From positions 448,001-512,000 of the forward strand of contig CAWFAK010000016.1 in assembly GCA_963813715.1 (NCBI GenBank): a DNA stretch of 64,000 bases, in the 5' to 3' direction. This document shows, piece after piece, positions 52,682 to 52,900 of the stretch. The stretch's first letter is position 1; each line of letters opens with the position of its first letter. The position numbers and the translations under genes were made by a program. Origin of the DNA: an uncultured Planctomycetaceae bacterium. GTDB taxonomy: Bacteria; Planctomycetota; Planctomycetia; Planctomycetales; Planctomycetaceae. The notes beneath the pieces are model-generated. The model was given only the letters and a program-made list of their open reading frames with translations. It searched no databases and was not told where the DNA came from.

Positions 52682-52900
52682 AGATCAATCTGCGCATTTG
52701 ATGGTGACAGCTGTGGGAAGGCTTGCGAAGCGTAGCGAAGCAAGGTTTCCCACAGCGGCCGGCGGTAGATCGTCCGCCCTCAGGTCCAAGAAGACCGTGG
52801 GAGAGCTGGATCGCCGCCGGTCTCATGAGATCAGCCCGAACAGCCGTCAGAGCCGTCGTGGCGCCAGTCGCCGCTCGAGCTCGCATTCGCAAGGACGGGA
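52682..52900 (+). ncRNA. putative bridge RNA of IS110 copy 1
   Basis: 5' hairpin 52710-52756; target-binding loop with GTCCGCCCT (52772-80) and TGGGAGAG (52798-805); donor-binding loop with ACAGCCG (52840-46) and GCAAG (52889-93). Confidence 0.75.

What the first reader, a model, noticed from the sequence alone, without database searches (positions are those of the whole stretch)
52682..52900. IS110 left end encodes a bridge-RNA-like ncRNA whose loops match both target and donor DNA
Seen: the roughly 240-bp non-coding left end folds into three parts. (i) A 5' hairpin, GCTGTGGGAA/TTCCCACAGC. (ii) A stem GGCCGGCGG..GATC / GATC..CCGCCGGTC enclosing GTCCGCCCT, a GGTC/GACC hairpin and TGGGAGAG. 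(iii) A stem CCCG/CGGG enclosing ACAGCCG, a GAGC/GCTC hairpin and GCAAG. TGGGAGAG is the exact reverse complement of the core plus right target (CTCTCCCA) at both insertions. GTCCGCCCT partly matches the left targets (5/9 to CCCGACCCT, 6/9 to CCCCGACCT, plus G-T wobbles). ACAGCCG equals the donor arm before the core, and GCAAG pairs with CTTGT after it with one wobble. Known: IS621-type IS110 recombinases use a bridge RNA with this loop order. Inference: this is a planctomycete RNA-guided recombinase with its own target and donor specificity, potentially reprogrammable.
Basis: partly seen in the sequence, partly recalled or inferred. Interest (0 to 1): 0.92.

Follow-up and report, generated by a model that had tools for sequence, protein, structure and literature searches.

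The report
Planctomycete IS110 bridge RNA gene
The non-coding left end of this jumping gene encodes a folded guide ("bridge") RNA whose loops spell out the repeat it inserts into and its own joined ends; this is a well-supported new member of a mechanism described in 2024, not a new mechanism.

Summary
Real, but a known kind. The 240-nt left end (52668-52907) of an IS621-type IS110 element (9 copies in the genome, 3 with intact 317-aa ORF; both window copies frameshifted) has the IS621 bridge-RNA layout. Its stems covary in 19 homologues (19 of 40 pairs with two-sided changes). Across 28 guide families the right target guide matches the insertion flank at 4.1 of 5 free positions (shuffled 1.65; 0 of 10,000). 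Donor guides track the element ends, and joined ends would form a -35/17/-10 promoter. Targets are a REP-like hairpin already among IS110 targets in the 2024 paper's supplement. No transcript or circle was shown. Most novel reading: the left guide slips by one base to cover two repeat variants. The scan has reported other IS110 bridge RNAs before, including planctomycete ones.

The parts
52659..52665 (+). Left target arm (LT, positions 1-7, CCCGACC), 5' part of a REP-like repeat split by the insertion
   Evidence: empty-site joint 52665 to 53883 in public contigs
52666..52667 (+). CT core, left junction
   Evidence: 9 of 9 genome copies
52668..52907 (+). Left non-coding end (240 nt); starts with right donor arm TGTAT
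52670..52675 (+). -10 box (TATGTT) of the promoter that forms only when the ends are joined
   Evidence: 17-nt spacing to the right-end TTGAAA; TATGTT at this place in 29 of 44 distinct end pairs; no promoter-like site in the linear form. Function inferred
52682..52899 (+). Predicted bridge RNA (about 220 nt; 5' end inferred from the promoter, not mapped)
52710..52756 (+). 5' hairpin, 16 pairs, tip of three tandem GCGNA units
   Evidence: 13 of 16 pairs change on both sides; triple unit in 19 of 26 distinct close homologues; absent in L121
52757..52822 (+). Target-binding loop module (outer stem, left guide, GGTC/GACC hairpin, right guide, handshake)
52773..52782 (+). Left target guide loop TCCGCCCTCA (10 nt, one shorter than IS621); pairs imperfectly with the bottom strand of LT; register not settled
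52799..52805 (+). Right target guide GGGAGAG (7 nt, naturally extended), reverse complement of core + right target
   Evidence: 9 of 9 genome sites; covariation over 28 guide families
52806..52807 (+). Target-loop handshake bases CT; the C can pair with donor position 7 (G), not with target position 7 (C)
   Evidence: C in 47 of 49 distinct guide sets; rule from PMC11208158
52835..52899 (+). Donor-binding loop module
52840..52846 (+). Left donor guide ACAGCCG
   Evidence: equals the arm before the right core in 95 of 99 parsed loci; another family's guide 0 of 495
52885..52893 (+). Right donor guide AT-TC-GCAAG, discontinuous, one G:T pair
   Evidence: covaries with the left-end start: ACGAG with CGTAT, ACTAG with AGTAT; same pattern as IS621
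52894..52895 (+). Donor-loop handshake bases GA; the G can pair with target position 7 (C in 9 of 9 sites). The purine run here doubles as the likely ribosome-binding site
   Evidence: G with C in 25 of 27 G-families; A with T in 3 of 8 A-families
52908..53860 (+). IS110 DEDD recombinase gene; this copy lacks one base near 53667 and shifts frame after about residue 253
   Evidence: intact 317-aa copies at G000 C16:393478(-), C5:1086649(+), C8:69193(-); Pfam PF01548 and PF02371
53864..53869 (+). -35 box (TTGAAA) of the junction promoter
   Evidence: TTGA-n-n at this place in 35 of 44 distinct end pairs
53876..53882 (+). Left donor arm ACAGCCG
53883..53889 (+). CT core and right target arm CTCCC; followed by the rest of the repeat hairpin (partner arm GGGAGAGGG near 53905)
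54290..54330 (+). Empty, degenerate copy of the target repeat between the two elements (lacks the CTCTCCC site)
   Evidence: repeat families D5 and D8; folds as a DNA hairpin
54562..55780 (+). Second copy of the element, same guides, frameshifted at other places

Best explanation
The left end is the gene of an IS621-type bridge RNA. SHOWN (sequence and comparison): element boundaries at CT cores, nine copies, conserved and covarying stems, guides that change together with insertion flanks and element ends, DEDD + serine recombinase. [quoted passage not shown] The left guide is a compromise between the two commonest repeat variants (one true mismatch plus a U:G pair to each). The two window copies need recombinase from an intact copy in trans unless their frameshifts are assembly errors.
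For: Right guide vs flank, positions 10-14: 4.13 of 5 per family, 28 families, 96 loci; shuffled mean 1.65, maximum 2.56, 0 of 10,000. Left guide vs left flank, best of three registers: 5.17 of 7 vs 3.52, 0 of 10,000; 34 families, 74 loci. Natural one-base retargeting: L119 (88% identical protein) has GGGTGAG and sits in CTCACCC, while 0 of 116 CCCTCACCC sites in this genome hold the element. Donor guides. Structure: 97.5% of 760 cells paired, 19 of 40 pairs with two-sided change, 0 of 500 shuffles; slid controls 33-45% paired. Protein: E 3e-42 to IS621 and ISCro4 structures; D12, E56, D98, D101, S237 invariant in 6 of 6 aligned. Junction promoter conserved. Loop order and positions match PMC11208158.
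Against: No transcript shown: the three RNA runs laid are contigs only and also cover the flanking repeats; none of the 4 joints listed is a right-end-to-left-end (circle) joint. The left guide never matches a site of this genome at more than 5 of 7; IS621 itself tolerates mismatches poorly. Unbound, the left and right guides pair with each other. The donor-loop closing stem is only 3 pairs and the invariant stems 3-5 carry little covariation. In some families the right guide fits only 2 of 5 free positions (short IS621-like guides) and in L128 it does not fit. 64 of 171 loci could not be parsed and were not scored. Homologues are kin, so permutation figures overstate.
Confidence: 0.93

Rival explanations
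1. Same RNA, but site choice rests on the right guide plus the hairpin of the repeat (read by the protein), and the left guide is largely dispensable in this lineage (half-match or sequence-plus-structure recognition). This is a rival about one step, not about the whole mechanism.
For: 9 of 9 insertions lie in repeat context against 89 of 715 empty CTCTCCC sites; among sites with left-guide score 5 or more, 8 of 49 repeat sites and 0 of 45 non-repeat sites are filled (Fisher p 0.006). At least four different left guides among 87-100% identical relatives use the same repeat. ISPpu10 shows a strict right guide, a tolerant left guide and a helping target stem-loop; one-armed matches recombine in IS621.
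Against: Left guides covary with left flanks across the clade, up to 9 of 9 in 11-nt loops. Non-repeat sites probably lie mostly in genes, where insertions are purged (not checked), so the repeat bias need not be mechanistic. Here the hairpin pairs the core and right arm with 3' DNA, unlike the 5' stem-loop of ISPpu10. Occupied repeats score only slightly above empty repeats (4.89 vs 4.33), which fits either view.
Confidence: 0.3
2. The loop-target likeness is passive: the left end captured a piece of the repeat (GGGAGAG is also the repeat's own right hairpin arm) and the protein alone recognises the site.
For: Target and guides are low-complexity C/G runs; GGGAGAG or GGGCGAG occurs in the repeat itself.
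Against: 28 different right guides each match their own flank, at a fixed place in an invariant scaffold; donor guides follow donor changes; IS621 needs the RNA.
Confidence: 0.02
3. The folded left end is only a 5' leader that controls recombinase translation or transcription, not a guide.
For: The likely ribosome-binding purine run lies in the 3' strand of the donor loop; an open frame runs from the left end into the gene.
Against: Does not explain guide-flank covariation. The upstream frame is not kept: left ends differ by non-triplet indels (240, 241, 231, 186 nt). A regulatory side role remains possible.
Confidence: 0.03

Closest known systems
IS621 bridge RNA and recombinase of E. coli (Durrant et al. 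2024, PMC11208160; Hiraizumi et al. 2024, PMC11208158; 2026, PMC13626964); ISCro4/IS622
   Same: RNA in the left end; order 5' hairpin, target loop, donor loop; CT core; right donor arm TGTAT read by a discontinuous guide; handshake positions; junction promoter; REP targets; DEDD + serine protein (E 3e-42 to 8wt6 and 9t56).
   Different: Longer RNA (about 220 vs 177 nt) with a longer 5' hairpin; natural 7-nt right guide (IS621 4 nt; longer ones are known in orthologues); left-guide loop one base shorter (10 nt after the conserved G against 11 in the IS621 scaffold printed); donor arm ACAGCCG; left guide imperfect and of uncertain register. Not tested in the laboratory.
Unnamed IS621 orthologues in Supplementary Data 1 and 2 of PMC11208160
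   Same: Rows with the right guide context GTGGGAGAGC (23 occurrences) and targets in the same CCCTCACCC..CCCTCTCCC repeat; one row has, by eye, the scaffold of the 43-45% identical relatives L032, L035, L107-L113.
   Different: This element's donor-loop string and joined ends were not found in the part of file 4 that is held (0 hits for two strings; the file is cut and gapped, so absence is not shown).
ISPpu10 of Pseudomonas putida (bioRxiv 10.64898/2026.03.19.712850)
   Same: REP target, strict right guide, mismatch-tolerant left guide with a U:G pair.
   Different: Its target stem-loop lies 5' and involves the left arm; here the hairpin pairs core and right arm with downstream DNA.

Membership tests
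IS110 family, IS110 (IS621-like) group | N-terminal DEDD RuvC domain (PF01548) and C-terminal Tnp domain (PF02371) with catalytic serine | tested here: met
   Intact copy P0001: 89.2 and 63.2 bits, over cut-offs; D12, E56, D98, D101, S237. The window copy loses the end of the Tnp domain by frameshift.
IS110 family, IS110 (IS621-like) group | Short core (CT) at both ends, no target duplication beyond it; empty site has one core | tested here: met
   9 of 9 copies; empty-site joint with 2 shared letters in runs X15 and X3
IS110 family, IS110 (IS621-like) group | Left end longer than right end (IS1111 group: the reverse) | tested here: met
   240 nt vs 22 nt
IS110 family, IS110 (IS621-like) group | Promoter rebuilt across the joined ends | tested here: met
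   TTGAAA, 17 nt, TATGTT, conserved; none in the linear form. Sequence motif only
IS110 family, IS110 (IS621-like) group | Circular intermediate exists | tested here: inconclusive
   No circle joint among 4 joints in 4 runs of contigs; contigs drop rare forms
Bridge RNA (IS621 type) | Two internal loops, each split by a hairpin, in conserved stems | tested here: met
Bridge RNA (IS621 type) | Right target guide pairs with top strand of core + right target and covaries | tested here: met
Bridge RNA (IS621 type) | Left target guide (8-9 nt) repeats the left target and covaries | tested here: met
   Met for the clade; in this element only about 5 of 7 plus U:G pairs, register unsettled
Bridge RNA (IS621 type) | Left and right donor guides match the element's ends and covary | tested here: met
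Bridge RNA (IS621 type) | Handshake bases pair with position 7 of the other DNA | tested here: met
   Both fit in this element; across families weak covariation (A:T 3 of 8 vs G:T 1 of 27, Fisher p 0.03, kin not independent)
Bridge RNA (IS621 type) | RNA is transcribed, binds the recombinase and is needed for recombination | not testable with these tools
   Six RNA runs hold the element but contigs cannot show strand, ends or level
Rfam RNA family | Match at a family's gathering score | tested here: not met
   Best 25.3 bits against a cut-off of 55; 7 chance-level matches. Rfam 15 gave no model that covers it

The most novel reading that the evidence does not exclude
In this planctomycete-rich clade the left target guide sits in a loop one base shorter than in IS621 and can slip by one base (or bulge a target base) against the DNA, so that one guide serves two length variants of a host repeat while a rigid 7-nt right guide fixes the cut. 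Support: four identical left-guide loops fit different insertion sites in two registers (for example 10 of 11 against 1 of 11 sites in G051); among 28 ten-nt loops 7 clearly fit one register, 4 the next and 1 the other (shuffled 0.36, 1.35, 0.14); this element fits its two main site classes in different ungapped registers or with one mismatch each in the middle register. Against: the count for the second register is near chance, homopolymer assembly errors or a dispensable left guide give the same picture. Not found in print in two searches, though PMC11208160 notes off-target sites with inserted bases.
Probability: 0.3. Interest if true: 0.5.

Novelty: new member of a known kind. Interest (0 to 1): 0.25.

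Why it matters
The mechanism is known and such RNAs are predicted in most IS110 elements, so the finding does not change what is known. Its value is practical and comparative: an intact, multi-copy orthologue distant from IS621, with a naturally long right guide (the change that made IS621 more specific), a series of close natural relatives that differ in single guide bases, and a clean case of one-base natural retargeting within one repeat. If the left guide really slips, guide design and off-target prediction for bridge editors would have to allow register shifts, and this element with its two repeat variants is a ready test.

Tried and rejected
An 8-nt right guide: rejected, the T is scaffold. 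Rfam: nothing at gathering score. Promoter or terminator in the linear element: 0 found; a possible second internal TTGA-17-TnnnAT box was seen by eye in several left ends but lacks the -11 A and was not tested. Expression: the look-up of sequencing runs listed 6 RNA holders; three were laid with one DNA run, all as contigs, covering left end, gene and flanking repeats alike, so they neither show nor exclude a transcript; no circle joint. One ACAGCCG-CTCACCC string in the genome looked like an insertion at the sister site but lies in unrelated sequence with no element end. Two literature searches were empty: IS110 + bridge RNA + planctomycet and bridge recombinase + bulge + target-binding loop; IS110 + GCGAAGC gave 4 listings, none on bridge RNAs, not read. 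A Y1 transposase search found 8 matches in the genome; a link to the repeat was not examined. No structure or complex prediction was run: sequence hits to solved IS621 and ISCro4 were sufficient and the tools do not score RNA partners. Rows dropped: of 171 loci with a protein hit, 64 did not parse (19 partial, 24 no donor-loop anchor, 21 no target-loop parse), and of 107 parsed, 8 were left out (5 mis-parsed, 1 doubtful, 2 duplicates), leaving 99.

Full report
Element. The finding lies in the left end of an insertion sequence of 1,215 bases between two CT cores (52666-67 and 53883-84), with a second copy 1,896 bases on. The genome holds nine full copies, 94-100% alike. Three have an intact 317-aa frame; six, including both window copies, carry one- or two-base indels, each at its own place. 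The base missing near 53667 is present in 8 of 9 genome copies and in contigs of 4 of 4 public runs; whether it is a real mutation or an assembly error cannot be told. The intact protein has Pfam DEDD_Tnp_IS110 and Transposase_20, hits the solved IS621 and ISCro4 recombinases at E 3e-42, and keeps D12, E56, D98, D101 and S237. The closest named homologues (91-95%) are in records titled Planctomycetaceae.

Fold. The stretch 52682-52908 folds at -102.4 kcal/mol, z -3.59. The lowest-energy fold shows the 5' hairpin and target module but not the donor module; the model stems can be forced for 0.5 kcal/mol, and opening all four guides costs about 9 more, mainly because the C-rich left guide pairs with the G-rich right guide. 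In an alignment of 19 left ends (proteins 57-100% alike) 97.5% of 760 cells of the 40 model pairs are paired, 19 pairs change on both sides, no shuffle of 500 reaches this and slid controls give 33-45%. Most of this signal is in the 5' hairpin (13 of 16 pairs) and the target stem (4 of 13); the three short inner stems hardly vary. Rfam has no family for it.

Register. Using the positions given for IS621 in PMC11208158 (parts 2-3 of 9 read) and the scaffold printed in the supplement of PMC11208160, the loops read: conserved G 52772, ten-base left-guide loop 52773-82, hairpin, G-U linker, right guide GGGAGAG 52799-805, handshake CT; then G-A, left donor guide ACAGCCG 52840-46, hairpin closed by the second GCTC, right donor guide AT-TC-GCAAG 52885-93, handshake GA.

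Covariation. I collected homologous loci; 171 had a protein hit, 107 parsed, 99 were kept. Loops were located from RNA-internal anchors, flanks from the element ends. Right guide: 4.13 of 5 free positions match per family (28 families, 96 loci) against 1.65 shuffled, maximum 2.56 in 10,000; by position 0.96, 0.89, 0.72, 0.79, 0.77. The linker base does not follow position 15. Left donor guide: its exact sequence plus CT follows the gene in 95 of 99 loci, another family's in 0 of 495 trials. Right donor guide: ACGAG goes with a left end starting CGTAT, ACTAG with AGTAT. Handshake: C in 47 of 49 target loops against donor G7; donor-loop G with target C7 in 25 of 27 families, A with T7 in 3 of 8. 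Left target guide: best of three registers 5.17 of 7 against 3.52 shuffled (34 families, 74 loci). These families are kin, so the figures overstate independence, but the one-to-one changes are plain: L119, 88% identical, has GGGTGAG and sits in CTCACCC, the sister site a dozen bases upstream in the same kind of repeat, whereas 0 of 116 such sites in this genome are filled.

The weak point is this element's left guide. In ten-base loops the commonest register leaves one base before the hairpin (3.73 vs 2.43 shuffled; 7 clear cases). The guide is one true mismatch from each of the two commonest empty-repeat arms, CCCGGCC (12 of 46) and CCGGCCC (5 of 46). Four identical loops in homologues fit different sites in two registers. 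Slippage, a dispensable left guide, or homopolymer errors could each explain this.

Target. All nine sites read CC|CT|CTCCC then A or G, and 9 of 9 lie in a REP-like repeat (upstream CTCACCC-like string in 8, downstream partner arm in 8), against 89 of 715 empty CTCTCCC sites. Public contigs join 52665 to 53883 with two shared letters, which confirms the boundaries and the empty form. Among sites that fit the left guide equally well, only repeat sites are filled (8 of 49 vs 0 of 45), but selection against insertions in genes was not controlled.

Promoter and expression. Joined ends give TTGAAA, 17 bases, TATGTT; the boxes are kept across 44 distinct end pairs and the linear element has no promoter-like site. 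This is the IS621 arrangement (PMC11208160 section 5); read-through can supply RNA before excision (PMC13626964, parts 1-2 of 8). Six RNA runs hold the element, but the three laid are contigs that cover flanks too; no transcript and no circle are shown.

Comparison with print. PMC11208160: abstract, parts 2-3 of 14, sections 5, 12 and the first part of 43 read, supplements searched (file 2 not searchable; files 3, 4, 6 cut); it predicts bridge RNAs in 85.7% of IS110-group elements, notes longer right guides in orthologues, and its supplements hold other elements with the same right guide and the same repeat target. bioRxiv 10.64898/2026.03.19.712850: abstract, sections 7-8 and passages. bioRxiv 10.64898/2026.08.31.748434: abstract and section 8. 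bioRxiv 10.1101/2025.05.14.653916: passages; 72 orthologues screened, 18 active in human cells. Preprint supplements were closed. No paper in the held library has IS110, bridge RNA and planctomycet together. The remark that GCGNAGC forms very stable DNA mini-hairpins is recalled, not from a call.

Verdict. Observation mostly right, with corrected registers; interpretation right; a new member of a known kind. Interest 0.25. The boldest reading left open is a slipping left guide (probability 0.3, interest 0.5).

Noticed in passing
window 52725-52741: The tip of the 5' hairpin is three tandem GCGNA units; the triple is kept in 19 of 26 distinct close homologues with N free (A, G, C, T seen) and occurs in this genome only in the nine copies. 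GNA-triloop hairpins are very stable in single-stranded DNA (recalled), so this part may act as DNA; an RNA 3x3 G-A loop also fits.
   Followed up: partly
L121 left end: An 87% identical relative lacks the whole 5' hairpin (left end 186 nt instead of 240) yet sits in a matching site, so the hairpin may be dispensable or lost after insertion.
   Followed up: no
G000:C5:1208251 (L004): One copy in this genome is a second variant: left guide loop TCCACCCCGA with a compensating change in the target stem; the same variant occurs in L116-L118. Copies look mosaic along the gene.
   Followed up: partly
L120 left junction: Core reads CG instead of CT at the left junction and the left guide has G at the matching position (8 of 9 match). 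Single case.
   Followed up: no
L017, L020, L033, L034, L086, L087: The donor arm lies 130-290 bases further from the gene than usual, so these elements have long right ends; L018 and L027 had none within the stretch searched.
   Followed up: no
L044 upstream of the gene; L142 right flank: L044 has unrelated palindromic DNA where the left end should be. In L142 the DNA after the right core repeats the element's own target-loop sequence, as if inserted into another copy's RNA gene.
   Followed up: no
window 51920-52660 and 53890-54560: Both elements sit in clusters of several interspersed repeat types; one (GGGACGGGAC..C) occurs 217 times and another 29 times in the genome. Eight Y1-transposase matches exist in the genome; no link tested.
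   Followed up: partly
window 50460-51848 (+): A 462-aa open frame with a signal-like start, long Cys-Pro-Ala repeats (66-72-nt units) and a helical-repeat-like end.
   Followed up: no
window 52674-52702: A second TTGA, 17-base spacer, TnnnAT arrangement inside the left end recurs in several homologues by eye; it fails the -11 A rule.
   Followed up: no
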